Shown: positions 4,028 through 64,000 of the stretch, piece after piece
How positions within the stretch are numbered: the first letter of the stretch is position 1
How the letters are laid out: each line of letters begins with the position of its first letter
Assembly: GCA_010909165.1 (NCBI GenBank)
Contig: MU008155.1
Location: forward strand, 1,302,001 to 1,366,000
Source: Anthoceros angustus
Lineage: Eukaryota > Plantae > Anthocerotophyta
Direction of reading: 5' to 3'
DNA: 64,000 nt
The notes under the pieces: generated by a model
The model's database searches: none
Told to the model about the DNA's origin: nothing
The model's input: only the letters and a program-made list of their open reading frames with translations
Position numbers and translations under genes: made by a program

Positions 4028-4029
4028 GC

Positions 4030-39004: not shown

Positions 39005-41848
39005 TCATGACTGCCCAATGAGACTAGCTATGTTCACATGTGAAGTGCAAAGAAAGCTCCTTAACGCCTTCGTCTGCTGTTGCCCGTAGAATTCAAGCAT
39101 TTGAGCAACAACATCTGCAAGCAACCCAACCAGCATTACCACAACAGTCGTCAGCCTGTAATTCAATTGGCGGTGAAATAAGCAATATCACATGATGAGA
39201 GTGTGCAGAACAGATCTTGTGCAACACAGATCTCATGCAGCCAAATTTTGACAGGTTAGTACTACTACAACAGGTGCTGGACTTCCACTCCTGTATCATA
39301 CTTTCAAACACAAGACAATCTGGAGGCTTCCATAACACAAGCTTCCATCCCTCCCAAGTTACCAGGCCTCACCAGCACGACCTGTAAGGGCCGGCTCTTC
39401 TTAGCTACCGATTAGAGACAAGTTATCTCTCTAATCAGGTACCGTGCAAAAAGCTTTTGGAAGCAATAGGCTGATATCATACAACCTAGAAATCGGAACA
39501 ATACCACCAAGCTCAAATTTTCCAGACAGACGCTGTCCACCAGGCTTCCACATCACGCAGACTACACAATCCACTATAAGATGATTTGTGTGATTCCAGG
39601 CTAGTTGAAGCAAGAAGCATAAGTCAGAGATCCTGGAATCCTGGCCCATGCTACCTAACCCAACTGCTGGGTATTAACGAATTTCAAAATTAACAGATAC
39701 ACCATGTCACGTGAGTTCACCATCTTTACTCTGCTAGGTATGACACTGCAGGCAGGCTATTCCAAGTGGAAAGCCCAAGAGCGAGAGATGCACCAAAGCT
39801 GTCTGGCAGCGTACAGACATGATCCCTGATAGTTCCGTTCACCATCCAAAACAGTGTCAAATGACAAGGTAAAACCATGACTGGGAGTACCTGTCAAAAT
39901 ATCCGGAGTTGTTTGAAACTCAGTCCACCAGGGGATCTTTCCATTTATAAAAGGCAGTTCAATATTTAGAACCTTTGAAGCCAGGAAAGCAGCCCCAGCA
40001 GCTATATGCTCAGGATGGAATTGAAGACAGAGTGTAGTTCGCAACCTGCAAGAAGATCAAGACCAAGAAGGTATTGAGAAATGCTAAATCATGCTGAACT
40101 CTGCACAGCAGCAATGCATCTTAATATCAGCAGCCACTCACCCATCATTGACAAAGTTACAAGCAACTTGCCAAAACGGGCCATGCCCAAGCTCCATTTT
40201 GTTCAACACTGCAAGTAGGGGCTTGTACGGATGATGCACAGTGAGTTCGAAGTCCAAAGTTGTAAGCACCAATTGCTCTCCTCCCAGAACAATCTCTCTT
40301 TGTCTCTCCATCTCCTGCTCAGACAGGCACAGCAGATATTACTCCTGCGTGCAACAGCAACAGGAGAGCATCCTCAAAAATACAAACACAAACACAAATG
40401 TGATTGGATCATCCTTACTCTTTGAAATCTATGCTGAAACATGTTTGGTGGCCAATTGTGGCATAATTCATAAGCCACAAATATCACGTCATTCAATGGA
40501 CGAGCTGTTTCTTCTAGCTTCGCTGCCAAAAACATGCAGCTTGTGGCAATAATCTACAGAGACAATGACCATATCAGAAGAGGGGGCTGATCACAATTTT
40601 GCAAGAATACAATTTGGAAGAAAAATGCTGAGGCCCATGCTGATCACGTACAAATCTGTCATTTGAGGCATGTGATTGCCGCAAGAAAAATCTGTGGCAC
40701 AGTACAATCGCAGTCGCGATAGCTGTCTGCGGCCTGCACATATTCAAATATCTTTGTCAGGAGAAACCTCACAGACTGTTTCCGTAGCTCCCCACTCATG
40801 ACTAGTCTTGACTGTCCAGAGGACATGAATACGTACCCTGTAAGAAAAACTTTTGAGACATCGCTTTCCCCTCATATACAGCATCTCCCTCAGTTCCTAG
40901 TATAAGGCTTCAGCTTGAACAGGCAGGTAGCCAAGGAAGAAGACACAGTTGCAGCTGCTTGCAGTTGACTGATAGGTATACAATCACCAATCGAGGTTCA
41001 CAGATTCTGACAGAAAGGACAAAGTCCTCTCAAGTTGTTTTACGAGGTTTCTTACAATCATGAGCCTTCACGAAGAGGGCACTTGACCTAGGGTCATGAC
41101 TTGTTCAGCTTCCTGCCACTTTAAACATTCGGGATTCTAGGTGAAGCAGAAATGGGGAGGGGGCCCGCCGAGACCTTTCCAGGACGCAAGAAGCAGATAG
41201 CACAGCTATCGGACCTCATCCAGGACCTTGTTCTTTCCACTCAAACTGCAGACTCATATCCGCCTATAGTAATGCTCAACAGAAACACTAACTCACAAGC
41301 CCCAAAAACATGGCGCTAACCCTGCTCCCGCAAAAGGGAGACTCCGCAAGTTACTTCACTACACGAAGGAGTATAGATTCCCCATGCATGTCCAGTACTC
41401 AGATGTCCAACTCTGACGCTCAATGAATGTTTCCAAGAGCTACGAATCCGTGGCAGTAAAGCAGAAGACCAAGCACAGTATAACCACTGCCATTGATTCC
41501 TGACCAGCATGAAATTTAGGGCATAACGTGTGAGTGCATATCTTCGCGCATGACAGCCAGCCAGCCAGTAATGGGTGGATCTCAGAATACTCACAGTTGC
41601 AAGCGCATTCCGAGATTTTGCAGAAAGGTACAGTAAGAGTTCCGCAGATTTATCTCCTTCCGCAAGTCGATTCCGTCCCTTCGCGATGGCGAAAACCTTT
41701 CGATCTTGTCTCTCGGAAAATAGAACCCTGCACTGTCCGTCGAACTGCAGCTTGCGGAGCTGTTGCCATCCGAGCTTGTAGACCCCGCAGAGGGGCATGC
41801 ATTCGCTGTGTCTCGTTCCATTTGCAGAAAATCCCACGTGGTGACCAT
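39005..41848 (-). CDS. CYCT1: Cyclin T1-like protein (P-TEFb cyclin), 6 coding exons, about 302 aa
   Basis: Exons 41848-41595, 40733-40652, 40553-40419, 40314-40142, 40045-39891 and 39114-39005; all introns are GT-AG and in phase (909 nt). Motifs: [88 protein letters not shown]. The start could instead be the ATG at 41821, and an alternative last exon is not excluded. Confidence 0.93.
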
Positions 41849-43020: not shown

Positions 43021-43715
43021 CTAGCAGAGTAGCTTGTTGCACGTTGCAAGATCATCTCCGTTGAAAATCACGGCCGTCCATTGGACACAAAGGACATGAA
43101 TGGTTGTGGCACGAAGCACAGGCCACCATTGTTTTGATAGCCAGGATTTTCCAGAATCACCATCCAATCCAAAGAGCACAGTGAACTTAGATATAGTCAG
43201 ATTCATGTCCGTCATGATCTTACGAATCCATGAGAGGATCTCGCAACTGCACTTTTGTGCAAGGGGGCACCTGTAAAAGATATGCTCACTGGTATGCTCT
43301 TGTCCCGAGCCGCAAATAGTGCAGGAGGGGCAGCCCATAGCTTCAAAGAAACCATTCCATCTATCCGAGTTTGGAAGAGCATTGCGTAATATTTGCTAGA
43401 GAGTGCACCTATGTCGTTCTAGCACGCCTCGGCTTTTCCAAACCAGCCTGAGGATACGAGAATGGAGAGCGGATCTAACTTGATACTTTGCAGTAATTTT
43501 ATGAAACTCTTGCGGCATAGAGTCAGCCACTAGAAGTCTGTAAATGAATGAGGTCGAATCGTTGAGAAATGACTTCGAAGCAATGGTTTCATCCCCCTGA
43601 AAATTATTCCACCATCTCCACCTGCTAGTTTGAATTCGACAGAAGAAGGAGGCCGAACCATCCCATCAAAACTTGAAGCCCCCCCATTCGGTCGCAGTGC
43701 AGAGCAGTTTGTTAG
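43021..43715 (-). pseudogene. L1-type LINE ORF2 3' fragment (zf-RVT region)
   Basis: LRLVWKSRG...ILRNALPNSDRW..CPSCTICGSGQEHTSEHIFYRCPLA matches the LINE C-terminal CCHC zinc finger pattern. Confidence 0.8.
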
Positions 43716-43719: not shown

Positions 43720-44028
43720 TGTGGACAAGGGACGGATGCTTTGACTCCCTTTCATATCGATTAGTAAGGGTTTTTGTCTTTTTGTGAGGATTTGTGTGAG
43801 AAATAAGGAATACAAATGGATAATAAGGCCTATCGGTTACGCAGGCAGGGTGGCAACTCCGCTGTAGGCAAGGTCCGAAGGAGCTCCGGAGGACGGTCGC
43901 AAATATCAAGGAAGGCAGGGTTCAGAGCAGTTCCGAAGGAGGACTAGAGCAAGTTCGGAGGGGGGAGGTCGTGTGTGGAAAAGGAAGGTAAGTCCGACGG
44001 AGTGGCTCATAATTATGAAAGGATAACA
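43720..44028. repeat. Short LTR-like repeat (TG...CA), related to 57943-58161
   Basis: Both copies start TGTGGACAAGGGACG, share GTGAGGATTTGTGTGAGAAAT and GGATAATAAGGCCTAT, and end AATTAY..AAGG..AACA. No TSD, PBS or PPT was found. Confidence 0.6.
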
Positions 44029-44417: not shown

Positions 44418-44947
44418 ATGACATTTCCGGACACCATGGAGTATTGTACTAGTGTGAAGCCACCCGAGTACAAGTGCGCTCCACTTATAATTCTTCTTTA
44501 CGCCATGAGTCTTGCTTGTATTGAGCATCTCGAGAGGAAGCTAGCTATGATCGAGAATATGTCTTCTTTATCTGAGGATGTCCCTCCCAAGCGCCGGTGC
44601 CAGGAACGCGATTCCCTAGGCCGGTTGTCCTCTATTGGAGCAGCTGCCTATAACAAAGGGAAGGCAACAGACTTCGGAGGTGCTGAGAAAACTGGCAAGC
44701 GCAAACCTGGAAGGCCAAGGGGCACCACTAAGGAGGTCTTGCAGCGCCGTAAAGAGGCTGCTGCAGCTGCCCTAAAAGGCTCCATGGGCGGCCCTTCTGC
44801 ACGGACGAGGCTAACCCATCTGAGGATCCTAGCTTTCCTAAGCCTGCCAACCTGTTCAAGGAGACCCAAATTGTGACATACGGATCCACCAAGCATCCTC
44901 ACAGCCCCTTGTGGTATAGGGTTTACATCGGCAGCACCAAGGCAGTG
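44418..44947 (+). pseudogene. AT-hook-containing ORF, 5' part, interrupted by the TIR element
   Basis: KRKPGRPRGTTK. The frame reads GSTKAV|MKRVRVEAFG across the reconstructed empty site that joins 44947 to 57099. Confidence 0.5.
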
Positions 44948-46199
44948 AACAAGGTCTCCTAAGAAGTGGAGACGACTCCTCGTCTCTAATTTTGAGGGTG
45001 TGAAATTTGGGGTTTGACGATGGAAAACCGTGCTTTGTCACGTTTTCAAAACTTTGGCCAAAAGCTTAAGTGTGAAAGTCCGAAGTTTAGAATGAAACCG
45101 TGTATTTTTAGGGTTTTCCCTGGGTAACATAATCCTCTAATTATCCACAAAAAAATGGTTACATTCGAAGATGGAAACCACATGTAATATGCCATGTAGT
45201 CATATGGACATCATGAATTTCAAAATGATGACATAAACGGTTTGAAGGGTTGCATGTATGAATGGTAAATAAAAAATGGTGGATGCCGCATCTAATTCTA
45301 TGGTGGATATCCGGTGAACGCGGCTTCATCGTGAACCGACTCAGTACACAAGTCAAGTGTTGGGTTCGGATAGTGCCTCATTTCTATGTTGCGAAACATG
45401 ACATGCACAGGCATGCGGCTTGCATTCTCCAGCGTGCTCTCAAAGTCCCCCCAGGCACCAACGTTTGGATGTGTTGAGCGTCATTTTTAACCTCACACGC
45501 TTAGCATAATCCATGCCCATTGGCTAACCTAATCGGCTACAATGTTGCGTATGGTGGCCAGGCGAGGCGGTATGACATATCCTGATCTGAGGCCCGTGGT
45601 TATGTCATCGGACATGCTCAATGCTTGATGCGTATATAGCCAGTGGCGACGATCACGGTAGTTTTGTATACATGATGACAATGTCTGCGGAATGTGGAGG
45701 AGTTTGACGATCGGCGATTTCGCTATTTTACGGTTATGCGGCGGGGCGAGTTCTTATTGCAAGGGTGATCATGGGCCCGCTATGGTAGCATCACGCCTCA
45801 ACATTCAATGGCGACAAAGAACAAAGCGCAAAATCGTATGCTTGCAATCCGGTGAAAACAAACACGAGAACATGCACTCGGGTTGAGGGTCATCACCGAG
45901 GACACAACGGACAAAGATAGCTCATCCGGCCTCAACAGTTGTCGGTGTTTGTGCTCACCGGTGCGGACACCTCTCCATGCGTCTGTGATCTGAGTCGAAC
46001 ACAAAACAGTTGCGGGCATTACCAATGCCCCACCTGATCAGAGATTCACAACATTAGTTCATATGCCCCGGGTTTTTCCGGCGCTATCCATGGTAGGGGG
46101 TGAACCAATGGATCATAGTCCTTAGTGGTCGTGTCAAGGAAGGTGACCTTGTCGCCGCCCCAGGCACTATGTTCACATGCCCAAACTTCGCCACTGTGC

Positions 46200-48300
46200 C
46201 CCAGGCTCCCTATTACCTTTGTCAACTATCGCCACAGCCTGAAGACATGGAAGGATCATCACACCTCAGGTGTAGAATGCTTTCCGATTGCGTGGCGCTT
46301 GAGATCCACAAAACTTGACTCCTCCACATTGTTCATCATCGGTTCTTTGGTGAGCGTCTTAGGCCCGTAGCCTTCAACCTCTCCCAACTCTTCCTCCTCG
46401 CTTGGCATTCTCTAAAGTATTGAGACGGAGGTCCATGAATTGAGCTGGCCGGGATCTCGTCTCACGATATCACGTTGCGTCCGCGCGAGGCGGCTACCAT
46501 ACGATCCGAGCGCACACCCCGGGACCCACTCGCCTTCCACGTATGCGGCTCCATCAACTTCCTCAACAACGATGAAGCACGGTATGGAAACTACCTATCA
46601 TCTGGCGTGTTATAACACGACTTATGTTCCTGACCTTCTCCTCAAAGCGGGTTGTCAACCACATGCCATCATTCATAACGATTTGAAGGCTGCGGTGAAA
46701 TGTTGGCACACAATCACCTTCAACGATCCGGCCCGTGGTGATATAATCCCTGCATACGACATGCTTGCAACGCTTTCACATTAGTTTTGTGCCGGAAGCC
46801 AGTGACACTCCTTTACAAGCTGCAAGCAAAACCTCCGTACCATGGACATGTCATCGGGGAATGAAATACCACGGCCGAAATACCTCGATGTCGTGATGCC
46901 TGGAATTGCAATATGATATTTTCAAACTCATCGCGGTGAATCGTGTCATACTCCTTGGAGTTGGCATCCAGATGCAACCCTCGTGGCAAGTCCAATAGGA
47001 GCAGGGCAAGCAGGGGGGTTCCAGCGAGCCATTCTCACGATGTTACCACATATTATTCCTATCACTGCATGATCTCCGGAAGCATCTCGATCGTCTTCAA
47101 CTTATCGGGGTGGAGGTCTCCGGCATCGCTGCTCATCATCGCCATAATCTTCCATGCTTTGGCCTTCAACACATGTTCCTTGAAACTCTCAGGGGTACTC
47201 CACGTTAGGCAAGCATTGGCTCGGCGCACCAAGGCAAAACCATCAACCATGAGTGTTCATGGGCATATGGATGTACATGGGCATAGCGTTCGGTCGAAAA
47301 ACAAATCGGATGCCACATTCTTAGAAATCAAACATGAAACAAGCAGTCCGGTGTGGACATTCCATACTTGCTCGGGTTCACACTTACCATATTTTTGGAA
47401 AGGTTGGAAGTTGCTTGATTTGGTCCACAGTCTTTGTATTGAGGATACCGCTCCTAACACGCTCAAGCGTCTAGCAATTCGGGGTTCTTCAAGTGTGGCG
47501 TGAATGAGGTTGATTTTTTGGCTTTCTCCACCCAATCCACATTTGCCGTAAACTCATTTCCCAGACAAGACCTTCATGCATCTTGTCTTCAAATTGTTGT
47601 TGCTGCCGAATATTCAATCCCTTGAAAGCACTTCCACACTCTCAGCATCCGCATCTTTAACCTCTATGACTACAAGGTCTCGCCACGGTGATTGGCCTTG
47701 TCTTCCTCACAGCCTTTGTTTGTTTGGCGGCTAGGGCTCGGGCCGCATCTATTTGTTCGAGTAGCGCTTACATTCCCACTTCTCAAATATCTCGTCACAT
47801 ACCTCCACACTTCTTCATCAACCTTCGCCATGATAATCAAGTGTCTGTTGTCCACGGTCGGTGATCGAACCTTGGGGCCATGCTGCGCATCCCACTTGGG
47901 GATCTGCCTGGCGGGCATATACATCCGACTTCGTCTACATCGCACTTCAAGCCCTTCTCTCCGCATCAACTCACTTACGATGTACGTACCTGTCCATGAA
48001 GGTGAATGTCTTCGGCATCTGCGATGGTGTTGTGGTCTCTCGATCCTCATCTCGTCCTCGTGAGTCCGGCTAGCTATGCATCCATCCACTTGAACTCTTC
48101 CTTGGGTATGGATCGAGCGGGACCTTGCACGGAAGGAATGGTTCCCTCCCAAAACGAAGAAATTGTAAAGCCCTCATCCACCTTCTCAACGTCAAAGTTC
48201 TCTTTGTGAGGACATGCGGTCGACAACCACAACCATTGGCGGCACACTACCCATGGGCGTGTTTCATCTTCGCATCAAAGCCTCTACCCGAGATCCGGCT
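46200..48300 (-). pseudogene. MULE (MuDR/FAR1-like) DDE transposase with C-terminal SWIM finger, heavily frameshifted
   Basis: In order across frames: VVVVD (~48230), EEFKWM (~48090), MPKTFTFMD (~48005), FALVRR..STPESFKEHVLK (~47180), FACSCKG...KRCKHVVC (46755-46830, two 1-bp corrections needed). Order and spacing fit MULE D-D-E-SWIM. Confidence 0.6.
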
Positions 48301-49233
48301 TCCTCACCTTAGGCGCCTCACAGATCTTGAGTGTCTGCTGCAGATTGGCAACTTCAAGGTAGACTCCCGGACTCTCTTGATAGCAATACCGTCCCTTTCG
48401 GCGTCCCGACTTGCATCCTTTTATGGCGTGAGCCTATCATCGTCGATGGCGACGCATCTTAGCTCTCTCCACAAACCTTGGCGTGGTGGATCCTCTTCCT
48501 CCTCCTCCTCCACAATTCGGCTTCTCCCGTTGCCACAGGTTTCTTGGCTTTCTGCTACCGCCTGTCCTTTTAATGTGTTTGCCATCTGCGGGCCTCTCCT
48601 CTTTCCCCTTTCTTCAAATTTCCCAGTGCCTGCTGCACCCTGCGATCGAGCAGCCCGGGCGTGAACCATCACGTACCGGGGATAATATCCGGTCATCCTC
48701 CATCGACCTCTTCTTCAAGTTCTCCTCCTCCTCTTCCGAGCCACCTTGACTTCCTCCAAGCTGCGCATCTTCGTCCTCCACAATGGTAGAATGCCATCAA
48801 AAGCCCTCGGTGTCCTCAGTTGTCTGGGCGTCCTCCTCACACCGTCAGACTACCTTCGAGTAAAATGGAAGTGGCTCACCAAGTCAGCCCGCAGTGAAAC
48901 AGCAGGACGTCGGTGCGGCGGTAGTATCATGGACACCAGCAGGCGGCGGAAACAGGCGAGGAAGGTGCTGGATCCCCATCGATGTGGTATTGAAGAAGCA
49001 TTGGGATGCCTCTTGCGCAGCGATGTCGGGTTGCTTAGCAAACCTTGGGGTTATACTTTGCATTGTTGGTTGGACAACATGCTTCCTATGATGCATTTGT
49101 TCCTTCATGCAATGCTTGGTTGCTTCCCAGAGATGCATTGGCCGGGACGGCGCTAAGTTGGCCCCCGGACACTCCTACTCTCGACCTTTGGGTTCAATCG
49201 GACCCGGACACCGAACCAAGTTACTGATTCCTT

Positions 49234-49854
49234 CTAAGCAAATTTGGTGCAACACTTTGTGGAACACTTTGTGTCCATCATTCGCAACCCACCAGCAGTT
49301 CCTCTCTCACACTTTCGGTGGCAATACGGGTCAAAAGTCCGGATCGCGGTGAGTATACTCGGACGGCGTGGGGTCGAGCTTGAGATGTCACGGTCTTGAG
49401 TGCGGAGGAAAATTACGTACCCTTGGTCATCCTTCTCCACAAATGCGTGAACAAAAGCGGCACCAAGACGGGAGACTTTATACTTGAGTACGCTGCATCC
49501 AAGATGTCTGATATGCAATATGTCCAGCAGGTTCATAGACCAATTCATCCATATCAAAGGAGAGTGTTCCGGGAACATCTTTACGATCATGTCGATTTCC
49601 GCTTGTATGGACTTTGGAATGATGTTGCGTCGGTGGCAGGTAGTGTGTCGCGGGGTCAAAGTTGTCGCGCTCTGGGTCTTGGAGGTCTTCGGGTCCGAAC
49701 TCGTCACAATGTCCAGGGGCCTCTGCGAATCACCGGCCTTCCGCCGTGCCCGTTTCTTCTCAGCCGCGAGCACAGCGTCTGGCTCAGCACCTTTACTCCG
49801 CTTCTTGGTCTGAGGTGTCATCTCCAAAAAACAAACCAAGTAGCAATGAGGCAT
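49234..49854 (-). CDS. Hypothetical protein in the TIR element (possibly the N-terminal part of the transposase gene)
   Basis: 206-aa ORF with a basic NLS-like start (KKRSK..EKKRARRK). Same strand as, and upstream of, the DDE region. Confidence 0.4.
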   Translation of the reverse strand: MPHCYLVCFLEMTPQTKKRSKGAEPDAVLAAEKKRARRKAGDSQRPLDIVTSSDPKTSKTQSATTLTPRHTTCHRRNIIPKSIQAEIDMIVKMFPEHSPLIWMNWSMNLLDILHIRHLGCSVLKYKVSRLGAAFVHAFVEKDDQGYVIFLRTQDRDISSSTPRRPSILTAIRTFDPYCHRKCERGTAGGLRMMDTKCSTKCCTKFA

Positions 49855-50504
49855 TACGCACTATGGATTATTGACTGCAAGTAGCACGCTTCATCAGGCC
49901 ACCTTGATACCTCCTCTTGAATCACCGGACAACGGTGAGGATGAGCGATGATCCTCGAGATCCACCGACTCCTCGGCGATATGAACCTCCCGATATGGAG
50001 TGGTCGAATACCACCACGGTTACCAAAATACTTAAGTGAACCTTTGGTGCCGCTATATGCATCTCCTCGCAATATTTTCGCCACCACTTTCCAGCGATCT
50101 GACGGTGGATGGCACAGTGTGTGACGGACAGTGAGACGATCTCCACTGCACAGCGACCGCCAAATGAGGTGGAATCGCAAATTTGGGTTGATGCAAATAG
50201 CCCGTTCATATGTTTCGCCAGCGAGGACACAACCGGCTAAACAAAGAATAAAGCATATTTTATGGAATATGCCTAGGCAAAACTCAATTTGCTAAAAAAT
50301 CTCGGGCTCCTCGATTCTACGCAATGCAGCGAAGGCATTTAACGATCCTCACCATGATTTGTAGCATAAAGTAGATATCCGTCCTAATTGTCAATAATCA
50401 ATGCGGTCCGCAAGAGGCATCTATACATGATGTTGAGCGGGCAATCTTTGCGGGTCTCCCTCGAGCACGCGTTCTCAACAATTCGTTTTCACTAGTCACG
50501 AGCA

Positions 50505-52852
50505 ATGGCAAGCGATCTCAATGCGGAGGAGGTTCTTTGATTTGGTGAGCAGCGGACTAGTGATGGCCGATGAAGACATCGGCCATGTCGAGTCGGATAT
50601 CGTGGACTTGGCGGCGGCGCGATGCTAGGCATGGGGTCCACTAGGCAATGTGTCAAATTCACGTGGTCGACATTCAAGGCGTTCTGACCCAGGTAAACCC
50701 CGGGCGTCCGGTGAAAGCTTGCGAAGACCCGGACACGCCAGTTTGGATCAAACCGACTTCTTTGGGTGATCGTTGGGCCTTGGTACGCAAGTGATGGAGA
50801 CCTTTACTTGTTTGATCCGGATGGACTCGGAGCAGGCGGCGAGACCGAGGAGAATTGCGGCACATGTGGACCGGCATGTCCGAGCTCGACAGCGCGCTGG
50901 GCGGCGGCCCGATATCCACCACCTGGCGCCGCACCCCTCGGCGGCTGCCGGCACTATACCAGTGCATTCAAATCGCGGTGCCAAGAAATTGGCAAGGATG
51001 TTACCTCGATCCAAATCCGCGCCAGCGGGTGGCTCCTGGTGACAAGGTGACAAGTGGCACCTACAACAAGTCCATGGTGTGCTTGCAAAGTACCATCAAC
51101 CTTGTGTCACACCACCTAGCACGAATGACAACACGGATTCTGAAGCAGAGAGTGTTGGTGAGTCTCTAATGCGGTGAGAAGATGCATGTGATCGTAGACT
51201 TCGGTTTGGACTTCACGGCATTGGGTCATGGAGGACCTGCCAGGAGCAGGCCAGAGCGACCAAACCTGGTACGTGATCCAATTGCCTTGTTTGGAGATGT
51301 GCTGGCACTAGATCACAATGAAGATTTGCCCGAAATGCTGCCCCCTACTAATCCTAAGTCCAGGGGGTTGGAGTTGCAATCTCGCGATAGGGTTGTTTGC
51401 TCAACAAAGAACCGTGCAAGGGTTGTCGGATCATGTAATCGCGGAATCAGTAAAGCGGCTTTCAGCATATGAAGAGACAATGTTGTACAAAAGGTTTAGC
51501 AAGGCTGGGGAAATGGTGATCAAGTCACTTTGTTGTTCTTTTTTTTCCATGATCCATCGGGCGATCAAACCCTAATGCATTGGAGGGTAGTTATTAAAGA
51601 GGGGTGCTACAACCCTCTACAGCAGTCAGAAAAGGTCACGCAGCACCCTTTGAAGAAACATGCAACCAATCAAGCTTTTGGAGACCACAATCATGGGTTA
51701 TGATTTCGAGTTGACGAGGAACAAGACTTTGAGCAAAGACACAATGGACATGTTGAGGAGGAAGATCTTCGAGTTACGAGCAGAGCCAAGAGAGGAACCG
51801 GCTTTGCTTCCTCCTGTTGATGGTGAAGCAAGTGGTGACGATAGAGTTTTTATGCAGTGTGGCTTATCTGTATTGGCATAGAGTGCTGATGCATTGTGGC
51901 TTTTGCACCGGATGTCCGGTGCTAAAGCTCCTGGTCGTTTCTAATTGTTGTAAGCATTACGCTTGTTTCTAGCCAGCCGCATATTTGGGTTTTTGTGATT
52001 TGGGCCTGGGCTCGGCGGGGCTTGATCATGAGGTGTGCCGGGCTTTTGACTTGTATGCGGGTGATTAGTCAGCGAACCTGAACACACTGCCATGTGGTAT
52101 TTTGGTCATTTGCCGTGTACTCGCAGCTACTCCATCTACCGCTCAGAACCAATTCTCCTGTGTTTGCCTTCCGGATGTGCGCGGCAAGCAACGGAGCAAG
52201 AACCCATTTAGGTGTGCGTCGTCAATTGTCCTGTACAGTCTGGCTGTGCATGCTGATGCTAGTGAGCGAAACCTTGATGCCTCCACCAGACGGGTGCTAG
52301 AGTGTTGTTGCAGACCAAACCAGTTCCTATGAGGACCAGGCGTGGCGGCTACCAGTCCCCACCATGGGTCACATGGCATATTGCGCAGAAGAGGGCCGAG
52401 GAGATCCACTTGATGGAGCGTCGTGGGCGTCCGAGGCATCATCGCCAATTGGTGGCCACTTCTCGAGTGGCATCCGCTTGCCACTCCCAAAGCCTTTGCG
52501 GGTTCTGTGGGGAGGTGGGATAAGGGTTTCTTTGAGGGAGCCTGAGAGTGAGGACTCTTTCCCGAGGAGGAGGAGGGCTGTGAGGCCCCGTGACATCTCC
52601 CATGATCTCACATTGGCTGGGAAGGAGGTGAAGGCAGCTGAGATGGAGCTGCGGAGGTTCAGGCCATATCTGGCCGTAAAGCCTGAACAGCGGGAGTTGA
52701 CGAAGGAGGAGCTAGAGGTAGAAGAGGCAGTGTGGGCAGCAAGAAGGCGTCAGAGGGAGCTGGCGCTTGTAATGGCGGCAGCGGAAACAGCTGCCAAGGC
52801 ATTAGCAGCTGTAGAGGGTTCAGATGTGAAGCGGGAGCCTGTGGCTGAGTGA
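50505..52852 (+). pseudogene. Fragmented cargo ORFs of the TIR element, divergent from the transposase
   Basis: Protein-like segments: MASDLNAEEV..(50506), IVGPWYASDGDLYLFDPDG (50766), 51182-51472, 51660-51881 and 52364-52852 (helical tail). No family recognised. Confidence 0.4.
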
Positions 52853-53786
52853 AGGCTTTTGGTAGTAGGCTGTTTCAATTCATGCATCTGTCGGTTGCTG
52901 TTGCTGGTGCTGTCGCTTGAAATCTTGATTTTACTTTTGCTGTTGTTGTCCTCTTGTTGATGGTGCTGTTACAAAGGCTGTTGCTGTTGGTAGTAAGGTC
53001 TTGCTGTGAGCCAATGACTGACTGCTGCTCTTCATGTATGTAGGTGCCAACATATAGGCGGGGAGGTTGATGTACAGTGGAGGGCAGCAGGCCTGTGATG
53101 AGGTCCTTCCTTTTTTTGGGAGCCACAAAACCCCTGGCTAGGATAGGCAGCTATGTTTTGGTGTGGGTGGAGTGCTGGTGCAAACCGTAGACTTCAAACT
53201 TGTTCATAACAGTAGTGGGCGTAAATTGTTGGCTTTGTCTGGACAACGTGGTGCGAAGGTCACCGGATGTCCGGTGCCTTTGGCAACTTAACTGAAAAGC
53301 TTGTCTTCGCGCTTAGACTGCAGATCCAACCTAGGTCCGACACCCATGTCTCTTCGCTTATGAGTATGGGTCACTTGAAAAAATTCGAAAAGTGACCGGT
53401 TGTCCGGTATCGGTTATATGGTGCCAGGGCACTTTTCTTTTTCATATATGTGAGCATTTTTGTATAATTTGGAACGCGAAAATATAGTTGGGCATATGGC
53501 CCATGTGGGATCTTGGTGTCTTATACCTCTAGTCTCCCACTATTGTACCAAATCAGATGTGTGCATGCATGTTTGTGTATCGGCTAGTTGACATGAAGAC
53601 ACATATCCTTGTTGTTTTTTATGGTGCCACAACCTTGCGATCGGTGTGGATCGCGGACTCTTCCCTGGGGTAGGAAATGAGTTAGGTTTTGTTTTTTTCG
53701 TAGGCGTGGAGTAGAAAATAAGGCGGAAGGGGAAAAATAGGTCCGAGCCCTGACTACACTCGGAGTAGTTCAAGGACTCGGAGTAG

Positions 53787-56491
53787 GTCAAGGATCACGG
53801 AGCACCCTCCCGGGAGGACCCACGACTACACTGGGCACAGTGGGTCCGCACCACACCGGATGTGATAAGCACGCCAAGCAAAGTAACTTAGGAGCGGAGC
53901 GGATGTGACGGGCCACGTGGGCATCTGAGAGGCGGACGGCAGCATCACCGTAGGGGTTACGTGGGTCAATTATAACCAAGTCCGACTTACCCGGATCACT
54001 GTGGTCCTTAACGGACCGGGAGATGCCCGCACCCACGACGGACTTCTCGGGTGCCTCGCCAGCTGTGGCCATGGAAGAGACACGGCGAGTCCTGGCAACC
54101 GTCATGGACGGGATGCTCTGGGGTCTCTGCGGGACGGCAGTAAGACCCAGGAGGTAGAGGCAACCAGGAGGCGCATGGTGCTCCTCTAGGAGCAGGTGGA
54201 GGCGGCCCAAGCGGCCAAGAAGAAGGCGGAAGCCCTCGCTCAAATCGAGGAGGGAAAGCGTCGGGAAGCAGAGCGGGAGGTCCGGTCTATTCATTAAGAC
54301 CGGACCAAGGTCCTCACCGCGGCACAAAAGCAGTGGAGGCCCCAAGCCCGCAGAGGACCGCAGCGACGGAAGTGGCGCAGGGGGAGTTGGAGGAAGCCCA
54401 GGGACAGTGAGCGGCTCGAGACCGGCCGAGGGCGGCTCGGAACAACACCAAGCCTAAGCTCGTGAAGGCGGCGCGGAGGCGGCCGCGGTAAACCGATCAC
54501 CGGCGGGATCGAAACCGGTGGAGGGGAGACGGACAGCCGCTGCTAACCTCAAGGCGGAGCAGAGGTGGGGAGGGGAGCAGGGACGGCCCAGTGAAGAGAA
54601 AGAGGCCAGCAACAAGGAGATGGAGGATCTCTGGGCTCAGTTGCGTGGAGCGGAGGAACGGCGGCAGGAGATGGAAGACCGCAAGGAGACCTTGGAGCTG
54701 CAGCTCCAAGACACAATCGAGCGGAACGGAGCTCTTCGGGGCGTGATCGCTGATCACGAGCGGGAGATAGAGCGACTCCAGCTCTGTTGGAGGGCGGAGG
54801 AGGTAAGGCGATGGAACAAGGAGCAGGACGTCGCCGAAATGGAGAAGAACCTGGACGAAGCAAGGAACCGGGCGGAGTTGCCGGACCGCCTGGGAAGAGA
54901 GATGGCGGAGCTTCAGGCCAGGATGAACGGGGGAGCGAGGGCCCTGGACGCAGAAAAGAAGCTGTTGGTCCAGTTGAGGAAGGCGGAGGGGGAGCGCTGC
55001 GCCATGGCGGGAAAGCCGGGCAGGAGGTGCGGAAACAAAGGGAGCTGGAGCAGGCGGAGCAGCAGCGGCGGCTGCAGGAAGTAACGGAGGCCTCCCTCGT
55101 GGCCTCGAGACGGCCCGCCCAACCGGCGGCGATGAAGACAGCAACAAGCCGCAGCACGCCCGCCAAGCACCTATGGCGGAAGGGAGACGGGTGCTCCGGC
55201 GCTGTGGAAGAGGCAATCCAAAGAAATCGACTGATTTTGCCTACTACACGCCGAGCTCCTCAAGGCTTGGAAGCTTTCGCACTGCCATAACTGGACGCAC
55301 CTCCTAAGGGTCAAGGAGTGGAAGGAGAAGAAGGGCACGGGACAAGACGGGGCCTTGGTGGCCTTGTTCGTGACGGCGCGGTGGAGAGGAGCCCAGAGGA
55401 AGCATGACGCGCCAACGAACAGTGCCTTGAGGTAAGCCACCGCAACCAGCAGGAGGATAGGGAACGAGGCCCCAAAGGGGTGGGGAGGAGGAAATCAACC
55501 GGACCAAGGCTAGGGGGGCCGTGAGCGAGGATGGGCCTCAGCCGAGGGTCGTGGCCTGGGGTCCGGACTTGAAGACCGACCGGTAATAAGGTTGGACCTC
55601 GAGGTCCGAACCTGAGAAGACCGGACCTCGAGGTCCCGACTGAAATAAGGCCGACTCAAGATCGGACTGTGAGTCGAGACCGACCCCGAGGTCCGGACTC
55701 GGAGGAGAGAGGAGTCGACTTGCTCAGAGGAGCACAACCTGGCTCTGTGTGACCCACTCAAGACTAGGAGAGGAGGATGTGGTGGTGATCAGCGGTTGTC
55801 CCACCGCGTAGAGCCCACCCGGCAGGTCTCGGAAGGGGAAGGGTCTCGCCGCTGGATCATCCGATTGGAACACAAGGTGGAGGGTCATTGCCGAGGCGAA
55901 CCAAGGGCATCCCCAGCCGATCACGAGGCGAAACCAAGGGCATCCCGCCCACCACGACGACGGAGATAGGCGGAGGGGGGGATGGTAGGCGGTTGATTAG
56001 ACACACCGAGGCCACCACCAATAGGAGTGTAATAAAGACCACCTTGGGTGTAGTATAAGAGGGGACCGCCTAGTAAAGCATCTTTTCTTGGTGGATACTT
56101 CTTGTAGACTCTTGTGTGTCTGCGCTAACAAGAGGTCAGTCACCGAAAGGTGCATGACGCCCCGAGAGATTGATCAAGGTCCTGGTGACGGACCCTAACG
56201 TGGTGATGGTGTGAGGGCAAACGACGACCCTTTTTGCTCAGAGAATGGACCGACGCGAAGTGGACCGAACGCGGTGGAGGCGGAGGAACTCCGGGAAGGC
56301 GTGTAGAGCCCAGCGGAACGACGGAGGAGGTCCGGACCACGCAGCCCACCCGCCTTTTCCCCCAAGAACGATGAGTGCAGCGAGAGTGGTGAGAAGAACG
56401 GACTAGAAGAACGAGTGACGGACTGGAATGATACGGACGCGAACGAGTCCTTAAATGTTTGGCCAAGGCGGGCCTATTCGGTGAACGTTAC
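53787..56491 (+). mobile_element. 2.7-kb solo-LTR-like insertion containing a frameshifted coiled-coil ORF
   Basis: Flanked by direct repeat GAGTAG (53781-53786, 56492-56497). Ends are GTCAAGG...CGTTAC (near TG..CA, imperfect). TATAA lies at 56054. ORF 54518-55084 is heptad-rich (EMEDRKETLELQLQDTIERN..). Confidence 0.65.
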
Positions 56492-57094
56492 GAGTAGTTA
56501 GTCGTAAAACGGTGAACGCGTGCGTTTGAGTCTGAAACGGACACGACGTTGAGGTGAGAAACGATTGAAACGTGGCAAACGGAGCCTATCATTCTCTTGG
56601 GAACGGACTCCTTACTACACGACACGGGATTGTGCGCGCCCGGCTGGCCGTCAGCAAAAGTCGCGCCACAATCGGTAAGGGTAGGATGTCCGGCATACTT
56701 GGACCAATGTGTACAAAAAAACATGTTAGCATATTGAGGTGTCGTTGCAGTTTTCAACTTAGCACATTGGTTCTGAAATTGTCATAAATGTATAGATTTA
56801 AAATGACAACCGGTTTTTGCGAAAATGCCCTTAAAAATCCTTAAAAATGGGGTATTTTCCAACTTGATCCAACCATGGACCTTTCTTAACAAGGTTAAAA
56901 GACATCCAAAAGGTAGAAAAGGTGCTTGACCTTTTCTACCTTTTTGAAAATTGGAAATAGTGCGGTTTTTGCCCTTGGTTTTTGGAAAAGCACCCAATCC
57001 AGAGATTGGTTTCCAATTTGTAGGTCGAATGTGACCAAATGGACGTCTGTCTCTAAAAAGAGGAGTGTGTCTCTACTTCTTAGGAGACCTTGTT

Positions 57095-57501
57095 AGTGAT
57101 GAAGCGCGTGCGAGTTGAGGCTTTCGGCATTCCCAAATAAGCATGGGTTAGTACATGAAGTGTCCGATTACACCGCTTGGTCGCTTTTCCTTTTAGCATT
57201 TGCCAGTGGGATGGTTCCTAAACTCCCACTGCTTCTGGCAGGGTCCAATATGCGCATACAGGAGGAGTCTGACATGAAGTCTGAGGACAGGATCTCGGGC
57301 CAGGAAAAGAGGAAATGGAAGAGATCAGAGGTCCTCCAATGGGTGGTTCATGTCAAACCTGAAGGACCGGCGGGTGAGGGCGGTGGCCAAAATTATTGTC
57401 CACTGGAACATGCTCATGAAGGTAGACCACCTAGGGGACAACCTACTCGTGTTCCTTCATGCTCTCATGAGGGGGAAAAGAGCTGCATGAACGACATGTA
57501 A
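57095..57501 (+). pseudogene. 3' part of the ORF interrupted by the TIR element
   Basis: Continues the 44418-44947 frame briefly, then shifts into ORF 57115-57501. Confidence 0.4.
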
Positions 57502-57942: not shown

Positions 57943-58161
57943 TGTGGACAAGGGACGAATGCTTTGACTCTCCTTCGGGTCGATTAGTAGGGATTTTTCA
58001 ATTTTTTCGTGAGGATTTGTGTGAGAAATGAGGGATACAAGTGGATAATAAGGCCTATTTAGTCAGGGTTCAGAGCAACTACGGAGGAGAAACGGAGAAG
58101 GTCCGAAGGAGGGGGTCCTGGGTGGTCTGACGACGTGGGTTGTAATTACGGAAGGGCAACA
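57943..58161. repeat. Short LTR-like repeat related to 43720-44028
   Basis: See 43720-44028. This copy lacks ~90 bp of the other. Confidence 0.6.
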
Positions 58162-60099
58162 CGTGGACAGTGGCATGGGTCGTCTGACATACAAGGGGTG
58201 AGAACCCCAGATTTGCTAGAAGCCGTTAAAGGCAGGTAGTCACGACCCAAGGACATGCTCCAAGAAGGCGGCGGGTGTGAAGATGTGGTATAAGATGCGG
58301 CAGTGGTACATCGGTACCCAAGGACAACTTCCCTGCAACAATTATGCCTCGCTGATTACAATGAGAGAAGAAGAAGACTCCTGCATGTATGCCTTGGCGC
58401 TTTTCCTGCCTCGGCCGACACCTAGCCCGGGCGCCACTCTTCCATCGCTGAAACGCACCATCTTGGAGGACTCCATCGTCTCAGCGCGCTTCCCTCCTTT
58501 AGGGCTAAGGGCGACGAAAGATGCGATGAGGCCGGAGCCATTCCGGAAGGGAGACGACCAGTGAGGCGGCATGGCTCCCAAGAAAGCGGCAGAGACTCTG
58601 GAGCCCTGGATGCTGGTGAAGAAGAACATCACCACCAAGCGCTACCCGGATTTCTGCCCATGGCTGGAGGAGGCGGGCGAGCTCATCGAGGAGTGGCACC
58701 TGGACATATTCAAGGCAGTCTGGACTTGCGACAGCGTGACCAGCTCCGCCTCTGCCTATCTTCGCTCACCGACAAGGGTACCGGTGCCGTAGTCTTGGCG
58801 GCCACCTCGAACGCCGCCTTCTTCTTCCCTCCATCCTGGTCCGACTTCTAGCCCTGTCGACACAGTCACTGGGGCTTGCTCTTCCAGTATCGCCACTAGC
58901 AACAGGAAAGATGGAATCTCTTCCCAAATTTCCCTTGGGGGGCAAGTGGTCCTTTCCAAGCGAATGGCATCCAGGATGGTCTCCCAATCCTCCTCCGCCT
59001 AAGTACGCCCGGTCTAGGGCTTTGCTGCAGGCCTATTGTCCGGGAGGTGCTCCTCATCGTCCCTTCCTCCAATCAACAAGTGTGTTAGCCCCCGGTGGAG
59101 CGCGCGCTCCTCCTCACTCTCCTTCAGGAGGTTGTCACTACTACAAAACGGGACGGTTTATGACAAGTGTGAAATGACAAAGCTATTCCGCATCACTGCC
59201 ATTAAAGAATGCTCTGGTCGGTGGCAATGACATTGTGCATGCGTCATAGGGTGTTTATGATGTATGTATTCTCGTGTTTCCTCCGCTATTGGGCCTCATA
59301 CTAATCTTTGGATTCCATCCCGTCAATATCGTTACGTGGGGGTTCAAATAGTGTCCGACTGCTCGAGTTGGCCTTCCCTGCTCGCAGGCCGGGTCACCAA
59401 CGGGTTAGTGTGGCCGACATTGTCGCCAAACGGTAACCATGTTTCGATCATCGCGGCGTGCTTTAGTGGGAGAGGATGGCCTCGACACCATTCCCAACGC
59501 CCCTGCTGTTGTTTCCAACGGCCGCACGAGGAGGACCCAACGCCTCCCACGGGCGCATTTTAGTTGTGAGCGGGACTCACCACCTTCTCGTGAACTCCTC
59601 TTTACCGCAAAGACGCTGCACCCAACTCCGCCATAGCTGCATCGGGTGAGCTATGGATCCTCCTTACACCAACCACAAATACCGGTCATCTCGCAATTGC
59701 CCGGTTATGGCGGAACCACACACCCCATCCGGCTGACGCCGCAGCCCGCCACGTCGCTCATGGGCGCTACCGCTGCCGAGGTGAGGCAAGATGTCCCAGG
59801 CGCAATCGCCTGGCGCCGCGTAGGGCAAATGTGGAGCGATCGACAATATTGTTTGCTGCACGCCGCCGTAAATCCAGATCGAGGTGTCCAGCCTATGTGC
59901 ATCCACACCGACGGGTTAGCTCGTAATGCCTCGCCGCAGCCTCCGGGGGCTTGTGCGTCATGCCCCGGAGTTTGTTGATGAAGTACCATTGCACATACCC
60001 GACGGGTGGGCGGGTTCCGAGGTGAGCGCTTGCACAAAGTTGATGCAAGACTTCAGCCAGGCTGCTCAGCAGGAGGGACAATCCAATTTGGAGGAGGAG

Positions 60100-62500
60100 G
60101 CTGCCAAACCCTTATGGTCGCCTCCGCCGAGGAATCCATGCATAGTCGATCATCCACGCTCGCATTCCTTAACATCCAAGACCAGATAAGATATCCGACC
60201 GCCATGTCCGCAATCTTCACCTCCTTCTTCGCCGGTGTTGCAAGACCAACAAGATGTCAAGGCAAGGTCGGATGTCCAGAGATGATGCTACACGCCGCGC
60301 AGTACGAATTGATGCCTGTTGGAGATCGCTCTGTTTTGGGGCACGAGGGCATTAGAGACCTCTTGCCACGGCGGCGAGCCCAGATATCGCGAGGGTGCCA
60401 TGGGCAACCTATTTCGGAAGACAATGTTTTATTTCACGCGATCGCCTCGCCGAATGTATGCGCGCTTTTTCAACAAAGACGTGAATCGATATGGTGGAAG
60501 GACCATAGGAGCACCGGTGGCGCGGATAATGGCCGATACACCCGCTCGCGTGCCTTGGATAGTAAGTGCCTTTCCGAAGACCAAATCTTCGCCCAGATTC
60601 TCACAGACGGCTTCAATCCAAGCGCCATCGTTCTTCCTCGTACTCTATCTGGCCTGTTCTCATTTTCATCCACAATTTTCCTCCTTGGCTCACGACAAAG
60701 AAGCAGCGGATTCTTATGCCTTTAATCATCCCAGGGCCGAAACAGGTCAAGAATATGGATGTGTATCTCCAACCTTTGTTGGAGGAGCTGGCGACCTTGT
60801 GGGTGGGTGTCCCATGTGCTGATCATTCCAAAGACGTGTCTGACCCGGGTCGCTTTTTCATCCTGAGGGCCGTGCGCGCACATGTGACTACCCCGACTCG
60901 AGCGCCGCTTGCAAGTGAGAGGGTATCGTTGTTGTGGACGCGGGGCTGGAAGCTAGATGGTCCCGGGCTTTGGAGAAAGTCGCGATGGGCACAGTAGATG
61001 GTGCCCCGCCCACGATAGCGCGGCATGACCACCGTGAGTTTTTCGACAATGCAAGTGATATTCGGCACGCCCTTCCCGAACCGTGCAGACATCATTGGAG
61101 ATGGATGCTTGGGAAAATGCGACCGGTGAGCGGGCGGCCGCAATGTCATGGGGTGTCGCGCCACGGCTTAAATGCTGCCCTACTTGCCGCCTATTCCGGG
61201 TTGTGGTGAAAGACGGATGCACACGGAAGTTAACAACGCTGTGCTTTTTGGAACATATGGAGTGGCAAATGGGACACCCACAATGCCGTGATTGACCTTA
61301 TGAATGTGGCCTCCAAGCCGTGGCTCGTTCGATGTGAGGCCCACCTCCCCGGCCATACACATTGAGCAAAATGACTTACAGTGCCGTGAAAGCGGAGCTA
61401 TGCAGATCAAACCACCAACGGCATTTGGGTCCAACCTTGCAACCAGCTTTGTGGGCAATGGTGAAGAGTCACGACCGCACTTGCTCCTCCAATTTTATTT
61501 TCCTATTGCACTACGCCACCGCTTGAGAGGCCCGGAGTACAAAGCCTTCATATAGAGCTCCATCTACCGATGGATTTGTCAAGGCAATCAAGCCCACGTA
61601 AACTCAATGCGGGCTCGTTGTGGATACAATGGTGGCCTTGGAGCGGTATTACCCTTCCGTGTTTTGGAACTGGCGCACCTCTTTATCCACCGCTAGATGA
61701 AGTTGCCACGCACGGCACGGTGCATGTTCGATGGATGTACCCTATCGAGGCATATGAATGTCTTGAAGCAATCAATCCGCCAAAGCCCGGCCCAAGGAAG
61801 TATGGCCACCGGGTACTTGGCAATGGAGAGCATGTTTTATGCGGACTACCCGGCGGCAAGGAATCCGGCTCAGCTCATTTGTTCCAACAGACATCTATAG
61901 ACCGGATGCAGGCCCCATCGGAAAGCGCAACCTAACCCTAAGTGGAGCAAAAGCGTATGCATCGATTTCGCTCCATTCGGAAACTTTGGATGGGATTCAA
62001 TGAATGGAGTTTGATGTTGAGGACTGACCGGGCCACTTTCCTCGAGTGGTCGGAAGCCGGTCCGAATCGTTGGCAATCCTTGAACAAGATAACGATATTC
62101 GGGCCATGGTGAACGGGCCGTAAGCGGGTCAGCTGGTGGGGTTGGAGACAATGGGGTACCACTACCATAGCCGGTGACTGCACCGCCTCCACATGTGATT
62201 GGGTTTTGGGACCTTTGACATGGAAGACCAACCTCGGCCGCCAGTTGAATGACTGGATGTGACTTTGAGGCGATTTTTGTGCCTTTGTCCTCCAAATCAA
62301 GTGGTTTTTGTGTGACGATCTTCAAACCCAAAGTCTATGGAAGAAGACATGAGCGGTTTCATGGTGGACACAAGGAAGGTGTACATCGGTGACCACAAAA
62401 CCATATTCACGCTGTCGACACGCGTTAGCACACCCGGATGTGGGAGAAGGCCGGGGTGGTTCATTTGCACACCGGTGCCTTCTTGGGATTTGCTATTGGA
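60100..62500 (+). pseudogene. CACTA transposase, frameshifted as assembled
   Basis: TDGFNP, SSSYSIWPVLIFIHNFPPWL, LIIPGPKQVKNMDVYLQPLLEELATLWVGV, EVATHGTVHVRWMYPIE and FVLQIKWFLCD..EEDMSGFMVD. Confidence 0.92.
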
Positions 62501-62663
62501 AAAAGACATGTAAACCCACGATCACCGGGATGTACAGAGCTTCATTGAAATGTAAACCACCAAGTGCCTCCATGGCACACGCATGCGGTCGTGCCATCCG
62601 ATGGCCAACAAAGCTAACCAAAGAGAAAATCCGACAAAGGTCATGGACTTGCACCTCAACGGA

Positions 62664-63635: not shown

Positions 63636-64000
63636 TGCGGGTCCTTCAAGCTTCTGTGCCAGCTCCCCAAACCCACCGTCGCTAGATGGGCTCTCGAAGG
63701 GCGTTCCAAGTGTTGCATCAGGCGGCGAGTCACAAGGCTCACTCTCACTGGAATGGCCAGTAGCCCAGTCATGCCAATCGCGTGCCCATCTTGGCTTTCC
63801 ATCTCAGACACCGACGGGCGCAAGGGAGTAACTGTTTGCAGCAAGTGAATGTCGGGCGGCGGCTTTGGTGATATGCAGCGCCAGCCGGCTTGGAGTGAAG
63901 GTCGAACCTCCACGTCTGCCCTGCTTCCGCCTATAGAGCGTGAACGGACTAGGTGGTACGATGCAACACCTGGCACATAGCGCACGGCTAGCAAAATAGT

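What the first reader, a model, noticed from the sequence alone, without database searches (positions are those of the whole stretch)
44948..57094. MULE-like transposase inside an element with short TIRs and only a 4-bp target duplication
Seen: 34-35-bp TIRs, AGTG on both flanks, no 8-11-bp duplication, a 7-bp hairpin overlapping the inner edge of the left TIR (44969-44986), a D-D-E-SWIM remnant, and several cargo ORFs on both strands over ~9.4 kb. Established: MULEs normally make 8-11-bp TSDs. Alternative reading: the right end is CACTA-like (reverse complement CACTAACAAGG) with a decayed left end and AGG/ATG flanks. Either way the combination of ends and transposase is non-canonical, which suggests an undescribed lineage or a chimera.
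Basis: partly seen in the sequence, partly recalled or inferred. Interest (0 to 1): 0.78.

Follow-up and report, generated by a model that had tools for sequence, protein, structure and literature searches.

The report
Mutator-like transposon with four-base footprint
This 12-kb stretch of a plant-like genome is a broken jumping gene with matching ends and an exact 4-base repeat on both sides; its enzyme remnant is likely of the Mutator type, which normally leaves 8-11 bases, so it may be a short-footprint variant, but only this one copy's ends could be read.

Summary
The ends are real: the first 18 bases match exactly, the pair is unique in the window, and it extends imperfectly to about 41 bp. 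AGTG sits exactly at both outer edges (chance about 0.5%), with no exact 5-12-bp duplication there. The right end is a high-depth repeat in an independent run and stops at 57084-57107, so much longer true ends are excluded on that side. The element is about 9.1 kb plus a nested 3.0-kb solo-LTR-like insertion (53645-56670), so much of the 'cargo' is not cargo. The CACTA reading fails; a separate CACTA starts at 59136. The weak point is the enzyme. A loosened motif chain (D, C-x-H, NNxxES, CKH) lies in MULE order (0 of 2000 shuffles, tuned after seeing it), but Pfam, three database searches and frameshift-aware MULE profiles gave no support, and the second Asp cannot be placed. No second copy's flanks could be read. 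Best reading (0.45): a decayed MULE-like element of a lineage with a 4-(or 5-)bp cut stagger, like hAT5 among hATs. Rivals: Sola-type ends around an unrelated remnant, or an ordinary MULE with a decayed 9-10-bp duplication.

The parts
44944..44947 (+). Left copy of the 4-bp direct repeat AGTG (candidate TSD)
44948..44988 (+).
45810..45880 (-). SWIM-like Cys/His stretch ending in CKH (45846); C-x-C spacing not intact in one frame
   Evidence: by eye, no Pfam hit
46300..46340 (-). NNVEES motif, candidate catalytic Glu
46695..46720 (-). VCQHF, candidate (C/D)xxH motif but with one residue between C and H
46950..46980 (-). LHLDANSK, candidate first catalytic Asp
45400..47700 (-). Putative MULE-like transposase remnant, many frame changes and stops; limits approximate; part of it (46670-47336) is a repeat in run X1 (depth 57 against about 3 in unique flank)
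   Evidence: not supported
49237..49860 (-). 208-codon stop-free frame upstream of the putative transposase, no family assigned
50300..53600 (+). Internal region with broken frames, no Pfam family at cut-off; moderately repeated in X1
53640..53644 (+). Left 5-bp TSD (ATCGG) of the nested insertion
53645..56670 (.). Nested 3.0-kb insertion with TGTGG...CCACA ends, solo-LTR-like; a contig of run X1 joins the two sides without it
   Evidence: (joint 53645 to 56684, depth 98); its 3' end resembles 9382-9428 and 12888-12980
56671..56675 (+). Right 5-bp TSD (ATCGG) of the nested insertion
56676..57053 (.). Right subterminal region, AT-rich, high-depth repeat in X1 (mostly 50-420)
57054..57094 (-). 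Right TIR, with GTCTC/GAGAC/GAGAC pentamers at offsets 7, 22, 42
57095..57098 (+). Right copy of the 4-bp direct repeat AGTG (candidate TSD)

Best explanation
This is a broken, TIR-bounded repeat of about 9.1 kb with a later 3.0-kb insertion, and it is likely a cut-and-paste transposon whose likely Mutator-like transposase would join its ends to target DNA with a 4-base (possibly 5-base) stagger instead of the usual 8-11. Shown: the TIR pair, the exact AGTG repeat at the TIR edges, the nested insertion with its own 5-bp duplication, a repeated right end that stops at 57084-57107, and no inner TIR pair with an 8-11-bp duplication. Inferred: that the minus-strand remnant at about 45400-47700 is a DDE/RNase H transposase with (C/D)xxH and SWIM motifs; that it is the element's own enzyme (it points into the left end and stops about 450 bp from it with no boundary seen between); that it would bind the alternating GAGAC/GTCTC pentamers in the TIRs; that it would excise through hairpins on the flanking DNA as Muta1 does; and that gap filling after a short staggered attack made the AGTG copy. 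This copy is dead as read; part of the breakage may be assembly error.
For: Ends and duplication: (chance about 0.005-0.006; 0.022 if symmetric inward shifts of 0-3 bases are also allowed). Right boundary: depth 109 at 57060-57083, 21 at 57084-57107, 0 in all 13 bins beyond. Motif order and spacing: D1 46974, C-x-H 46708 (89 codons on; about 90 in the fungal reference profile), E near 46321, CKH 45846; loosened chain found on the minus strand, in 0 of 2000 shuffles, and nowhere in the other 51.9 kb or the reversed window. The minus strand is purine-rich over 46-50 kb. GAGAC/GTCTC occurs 3 times in the first 46 bases of each end against 0.2 per 120 bases window-wide. Precedent for lineages with shorter TSDs in the sister superfamily: hAT5, hAT6, hAT7 (PMC12730594, passages). 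Relatedness of MULE and hAT, shared (C/D)(2)H motif and flank-hairpin chemistry: PMC5499845 (passages).
Against: No tool-based homology supports MULE: Pfam 0 hits on 3 read-through frames and no MULE, SWIM, ZSWIM or KDZ hit among 67 stop-free pieces; no hit in word-seeded searches of two of the three frames or in a phmmer scan of one frame against 1.84 billion representatives. Frameshift-aware alignments to three of my own MULE profiles were at background; the one whole-profile score that looked high was passed by 3 of 292 control tiles and did not place the motifs in register. The strict canonical motif chain fails; the loosened one was tuned after seeing the sequence. D2 cannot be placed and the C-H spacing is one short. 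A coding-bias test gave z 0.8 for this region, and its controls were poor. The termini start with AAC, while most arthropod MULE TIRs start with G/C (PMC13359780, passages). All TSD lengths stated in the part of Table 1 of PMC6446971 that I saw are 8-11 bp or none/not indicated. Only one copy's flanks were read. The depth mass in the last bin (511) fits an end at 57094 only if the terminal layer is about 46 deep; at 74-81 deep it fits an end near 57089-57090, the GG...CC boundary. The left end has far lower depth in X1 than the right end (7 against about 100).
Confidence: 0.45

Rival explanations
1. The ends and the 4-bp duplication belong to a known 4-bp-TSD superfamily (most likely Sola), and the motif-bearing stretch is either a nested MULE fragment that lost its own ends or is not a MULE gene at all.
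For: Sola elements have 4-bp TSDs, very variable termini, TIRs from 11 bp and occur in moss (PMC10741241, passages). An earlier unchecked note reports an 11.5-kb Sola element in this genome. MULE identity is unsupported by profiles. Depth along the element in X1 is very uneven (0 to 144), as a composite would give.
Against: No recalled Sola motif chain was found in six frames (motifs from memory, weak test). AGTG does not fit the AWWT/AWDT preference of insect Sola1 (PMC3845634, passages). No inner TIR plus 8-11-bp duplication marks a nested MULE. The loosened MULE chain is rare by chance.
Confidence: 0.27
2. An ordinary MULE: the real duplication was 9-10 bp and has decayed, or was lost, and the 4-bp match is partly or wholly coincidence. 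The true left end would be GGTCTCC or GTCTCC.
For: AGTGAACAA(G) against AGTGATGAA(G) matches 7 of 9 and 8 of 10 if the left end moves in by 5-6 bases; that gives a G-start typical of MULEs. The depth mass in the last bin can be read as an end near 57089. First readers flag anomalies out of many windows, so rare coincidences are enriched.
Against: It leaves 5-6 extra bases at the right end that are the exact complement of the left flank (chance about 0.001-0.0003), against about 0.04 for the extra matches under the 4-bp reading. With both ends moved in symmetrically to GG...CC no duplication of 3 or more bases is left. Both TIR tips are intact to the last base, which makes loss of only the duplication less likely.
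Confidence: 0.2
3. A CACTA element with a decayed left end and 3-bp flanks, or a CACTA/MULE chimera.
For: The right end read inwards begins CACTAACAAGG.
Against: The left end reads CAGTGAACAAGG (needs a substitution and an indel); the flanks AGG and ATG differ; no Transposase_21 or DUF4218 hit inside. The two CACTA-type starts seen in this window read CACTACTAGAAAA (12991) and CACTACTACAAAA (59136), unlike this end, and the Transposase_21 hit (E 2.4e-21) lies outside, at 60566-60994. CACT is simply the complement of the AGTG duplication.
Confidence: 0.04

Closest known systems
MULE/MuDR superfamily, SWIM-bearing groups with short TIRs (Dupeyron et al. 2019, PMC6446971; passages incl. most of Table 1 seen; FASTA supplements not readable)
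   Same: Order and rough spacing of D1, Cys/His motif, E and a C-terminal SWIM-like motif (by eye and loosened patterns); short TIRs occur in several groups (for example 20-46 bp); extra ORFs on either strand occur.
   Different: 4-bp instead of 8-11-bp duplication; termini start with A, not G/C; C-x-H instead of C-x-x-H as read; no Pfam MULE, ZSWIM or SWIM hit.
hAT5, hAT6, hAT7 lineages (PMC12730594, passages)
   Same: Precedent: lineages inside a (C/D)xxH-type superfamily that changed TSD length.
   Different: They are hATs, with 5-7-bp TSDs; no recalled hAT motif was found here and no hAT Pfam hit.
Sola (PMC10741241 and PMC3845634, passages)
   Same: 4-bp TSD, short TIR, variable termini, 2-9 kb or more, present in bryophytes.
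   Different: Sola has a DDD transposase; none was recognised here; AGTG does not fit the Sola1 AWWT/AWDT target.
Muta1 of Aedes aegypti (PMC5225508, PMC5499845; passages)
   Same: Model for the inferred chemistry; ends built from a terminal motif plus short repeated motifs.
   Different: 145-bp TIRs, 8-9-bp TSDs, intact and active.

Membership tests
MULE/MuDR | 8-11-bp TSD | tested here: not met
   Exact duplication is 4 bp at the TIR edge; 9-10 bp only with 2 mismatches and asymmetric ends. One copy only.
MULE/MuDR | MULE-type DDE domain by profile | tested here: inconclusive
   No Pfam or database hit; own profiles at background; loosened motif chain 0 of 2000 shuffles. Frame changes every few dozen codons blunt all of these tests.
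MULE/MuDR | (C/D)xxH motif 15-45 residues after the second Asp (PMC5499845) | tested here: inconclusive
   VCQHF at 46708 has one residue between C and H; D2 not placeable.
MULE/MuDR | Conserved Trp upstream of the catalytic Glu | not tested
   True frame before the E motif is unknown.
MULE/MuDR | SWIM or other zinc finger | tested here: inconclusive
   CKH at 45846 with upstream cysteines, no PF04434 hit.
MULE/MuDR | Long TIRs (typical, not required) starting with G/C | tested here: not met
   35-41 bp; similarity beyond 42 bp not above shuffles (71 of 500 reach it); starts AAC.
MULE/MuDR | Placement inside the MULE clade in a DDE tree | not testable with these tools
   No alignable protein and no second copy could be obtained.
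CACTA/EnSpm | CACTA/CACTG at both ends | tested here: not met
   Only the right side, and only by including the AGTG repeat.
CACTA/EnSpm | 3-bp TSD | tested here: not met
   AGG versus ATG.
CACTA/EnSpm | Transposase_21 inside the ends | tested here: not met
   Hit only at 60566-60994, outside.
Sola | 4-bp TSD | tested here: met
   feature from PMC10741241
Sola | DDD transposase | tested here: inconclusive
   No chain of recalled Sola motifs; no Sola profile available; sequence too broken to exclude a remnant.
Sola1 | AWWT/AWDT target | tested here: not met
   AGTG; feature from PMC3845634
Ginger | TG...CA termini with 4-6-bp TSD | tested here: not met
   Termini AA...TT; feature from PMC10741241
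KDZ (Zisupton, Kyakuja) | 8-bp or 7-bp TSD and KDZ transposase | tested here: not met
   TSD lengths from PMC12730594; no KDZ Pfam hit
Kolobok | TTAA target (recalled) | tested here: not met
   AGTG; recalled Kolobok motifs absent

The most novel reading that the evidence does not exclude
A multi-copy lineage of SWIM-bearing Mutator-like transposons in a non-seed land plant that has changed its target geometry to a 4-bp stagger and its termini to AAC, the shortest duplication for the superfamily and the MULE counterpart of hAT5; pipelines that classify by TSD would file it under Sola or miss it.
Probability: 0.4. Interest if true: 0.62.

Novelty: new variant of a known kind. Interest (0 to 1): 0.4.

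Why it matters
TSD length is set by the spacing of the two active sites on bent target DNA and is used as a defining mark of superfamilies. A MULE-type enzyme with a 4-bp stagger would halve the usual value, give a natural pair for asking what fixes that spacing, and test the idea that MULE precise excision depends on 8 or more bases of flanking homology (discussed in PMC5225508 and PMC5499845). It would also mean that structure-based annotation misfiles part of the DNA transposons in bryophyte-like genomes. If the rivals hold, it is an ordinary decayed element.

Tried and rejected
No whole genome is held, so other copies could not be collected. Run search: 1 DNA holder with a share of 0.07; no RNA holder listed. 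Laying that run's contigs gave no joint across the whole element and no cover of the right flank at 57108-57400; the loose-end tables were cut (6 of 108 and 6 of 14 rows shown), so terminal bases of other copies were not seen. TIR pattern scans: 1 match in metagenome contigs, a 20-21-base chance match in unrelated coding DNA; 0 in viral contigs. Related-locus scans of viral contigs: 0 confirmed. Protein searches with the putative transposase: none; the third reading frame was not searched against the large databases. The protein atlas gave no usable hit for the 208-codon frame and no result for the transposase region. To get reference MULEs I scanned collections with short recalled motif patterns: the viral hits showed no MULE context by eye; one genome-collection hit (L012, handle G001) held eukaryotic-type MULEs, which seeded 5 homologues; 0 of 400 further genomes added any. 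Profiles built from these narrow sets did not detect the region. A three-frame alignment was not colinear and was dropped. Flank frames gave no Pfam hit, so frame continuity across the empty site could not fix the TSD length. The coding-bias test was uninformative, as a control stretch also scored z 3.1. The hairpin as a special feature was rejected. Long degenerate TIRs were rejected. A nested MULE with TIRs was not found: 0 pairs at 14 bp with at most 3 mismatches, 9 chance-level pairs at 10 bp. Literature: 9 full-text searches listed no paper on a MULE with a 4-bp TSD; I saw listings and passages only, Repbase itself and subscription journals are not covered, and the FASTA supplements of PMC6446971 could not be read.
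Full report
Setting. No whole genome is held. The window is repeat-rich, about 50% GC, with a cyclin-like piece near 39.8-40.1 kb, a LINE-type zf-RVT piece at 43024-43395 and CACTA domains. Earlier unchecked notes on this genome call it a land plant, likely a hornwort, with Sola, GingerRoot and CACTA elements; I did not test the host.

The ends. The inverted repeat starts at 44948 and ends at 57094. The first 18 bases are identical and occur only at these two places, even with 3 mismatches allowed (2 matches, 0.03 expected). blastn gives 35 columns at 91% and a gapped alignment continues to about 41 bp. Beyond 42 bp the two ends are no more alike than shuffles (71 of 500 reach the score), so there is no long TIR. 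Each end carries the pentamer GAGAC or its complement three times within 46 bases. I read them as likely transposase sites, by analogy with the repeated end motifs of Muta1 (PMC5225508, passages); this is inference.

The duplication. I tried all end shifts of up to 12 bases and lengths 2-12. With both ends at the edge of the inverted repeat the only exact duplication is AGTG; random pairs give this 0.45% of the time. Two other readings exist. Moving the left end in by one base gives an exact AGTGA, so a single extra T at the right tip, or a lost A at the left, would make it 5 bp. Moving it in by 5-6 bases gives 9-10 bp with two mismatches and a G-start, but leaves 5-6 bases at the right end that perfectly complement the left flank. 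That costs about 0.001-0.0003, against about 0.04 for the extra matches under the 4-bp reading. So 4 bp is the simplest reading of this copy.

Independent data. One public run (X1, contigs, share 0.07) matches unique DNA at 40-42.5 kb closely at depth about 3. The right end is at depth of the order of 100 and falls to 21 in 57084-57107 and 0 beyond, so the repeat ends within about 13 bases of the TIR tip. The mass in the last bin fits a tip at 57094 if the terminal layer is about 46 deep, or near 57089-57090 if it is 74-81 deep; this cannot be settled and is a mild point for the ordinary-MULE rival. The left end is much shallower (7 over 44669-45335). Depth here is no copy number. All 12 indel rows shown of 35 for the right end are bases that the contigs lack, 6 of them in most of the depth, about 1.5 per 100 bases. 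The window therefore carries extra bases, from assembly error or private decay, enough to shift frame every few dozen codons.

The interior. A contig at depth 98 joins 53645 to 56684. The window shows ATCGG, then TGTGG...CCACA (53645-56670), then ATCGG: a nested 3026-bp insertion with a 5-bp duplication, likely a solo LTR; its 3' end resembles two other places in the window. Without it the element is 9116 bp. The long GC-rich frames at 53.8-55.7 kb belong to this insertion. No frame inside the element reached a Pfam cut-off (133, 67 and 81 pieces; the first set includes flanks), so host-gene cargo is not shown.

The enzyme. On the minus strand LHLDANSK (46974), VCQHF (46708), NNVEES (46336) and a Cys-rich stretch ending in CKH (45846) lie in the order and rough spacing of a MULE core plus SWIM (the motif expectations are recalled, and the D1-to-CH distance of 89 codons matches about 90 in the reference profile). 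A loosened chain of these four patterns appears here, in 0 of 2000 shuffles, and nowhere else in the window or its reverse; the strict version fails. The loosening was done after seeing the sequence, so the true significance is lower. Against this, Pfam, word-seeded searches of two frames, a full phmmer scan of one frame, and frameshift-aware alignment to profiles built from 5-11 fungal-type and bacterial Mutator-family proteins gave no support. In the block test each motif ranked in the top 0.02-2.3% of positions, but the chain did not beat background (22 and 29 of 200 shuffles reached it). The profiles were narrow and the frames broken, so these blanks do not show that it is not a MULE. The second Asp cannot be placed. 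The label 'MULE-like' is likely, not shown. No inner TIR pair with an 8-11-bp duplication surrounds the gene, and it ends about 450 bp from the left TIR, which fits an own gene better than a nested one, though a nested fragment without ends cannot be excluded.

CACTA reading. CACT at the right end is the complement of the AGTG repeat. The left end does not match, the 3-bp flanks differ, and the window's CACTA-type starts read CACTACTA(G/C)AAAA (12991, 59136). The Transposase_21 hit lies downstream of 59136, outside the element. Rejected.

Mechanism. Likely cut-and-paste by a DDE enzyme that binds the short TIRs, frees the ends through hairpins on the flanking DNA, as shown for Muta1 (PMC5499845, passages), and attacks the target with a 4-base stagger that repair copies. 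The ends and the repeat are shown; the enzyme class, its link to these ends and the chemistry are inferred.

Comparison. MULE TSDs are given as 8-11 bp (PMC6446971), 8-10 bp or 7-12 bp (PMC10741241); short TIRs are common in MULE groups, so only the TSD and the A-start are odd. A defining feature was tested and not met, so I do not file it as a MULE member; it likely works like one. hAT5, hAT6 and hAT7 show that TSD length can shift inside a related superfamily (PMC12730594). Sola is the known 4-bp class in bryophytes and is the main rival for the ends. Nine paper searches listed no 4-bp MULE; coverage is limited. For all papers I saw search listings, abstracts or passages only.

Verdict. A real TIR element with a probably real 4-bp duplication, a nested solo-LTR-like insertion, and an unconfirmed MULE-like remnant. 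Odds: short-TSD MULE-like variant 0.45, Sola-type or other ends with an unrelated remnant 0.27, ordinary MULE 0.20, CACTA 0.04. Interest 0.40; a table of flanks from other copies would decide it.

Noticed in passing
window 59136-64000: Separate CACTA element: starts CACTACTACAAAA at 59136, Transposase_21 at 60566-60994 (E 2.4e-21).
   Followed up: partly
window 12991 and 17829-19304: Another CACTA-type start (CACTACTAGAAAA) and a 492-codon minus-strand frame with DUF4218; whether they belong together was not checked.
   Followed up: no
window 9519-11350 and 31672-33602: A 1.9-kb inverted duplication, near-identical apart from frequent 1-base indels, 20 kb apart.
   Followed up: no
window 5000-13000: Roughly 3.4-kb periodic units with internal 20-28-bp and about 105-bp tandem repeats; unit ends resemble the 3' end of the nested solo-LTR-like insertion.
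   Followed up: no
window 51907-51920, 53262-53275, 53395-53408: Three copies of a near-palindromic 14-mer in the right half of the element (5 strand matches, 0.4 expected); possible protein-binding sites.
   Followed up: no
window 43720-43978 and 57943-58125: Same-orientation repeat (86% over 116 bp) in both flanks of the element; the host sequence may itself be an old repeat.
   Followed up: partly
window 39760-40056 and 43024-43395: Cyclin C-terminal-like piece (E 2.5e-4) and LINE-type zf-RVT piece (E 0.003), both below cut-off.
   Followed up: no
window 3542-4246: PHD-finger hit (E 4.6e-6) in a 235-codon frame.
   Followed up: no
window 37031-37734: Adjacent 28-, 47- and 54-bp tandem arrays.
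   Followed up: no
G001:C1 4.4-6.6 Mb (L012, L034-L040, L047-L048, L054, L056): A genome held as a bacterial MAG carries several eukaryotic-type MULE transposases (FAR1, ZSWIM1-3, SWIM hits; relatives named from a lichen fungus), which points to eukaryotic DNA joined into that assembly.
   Followed up: no
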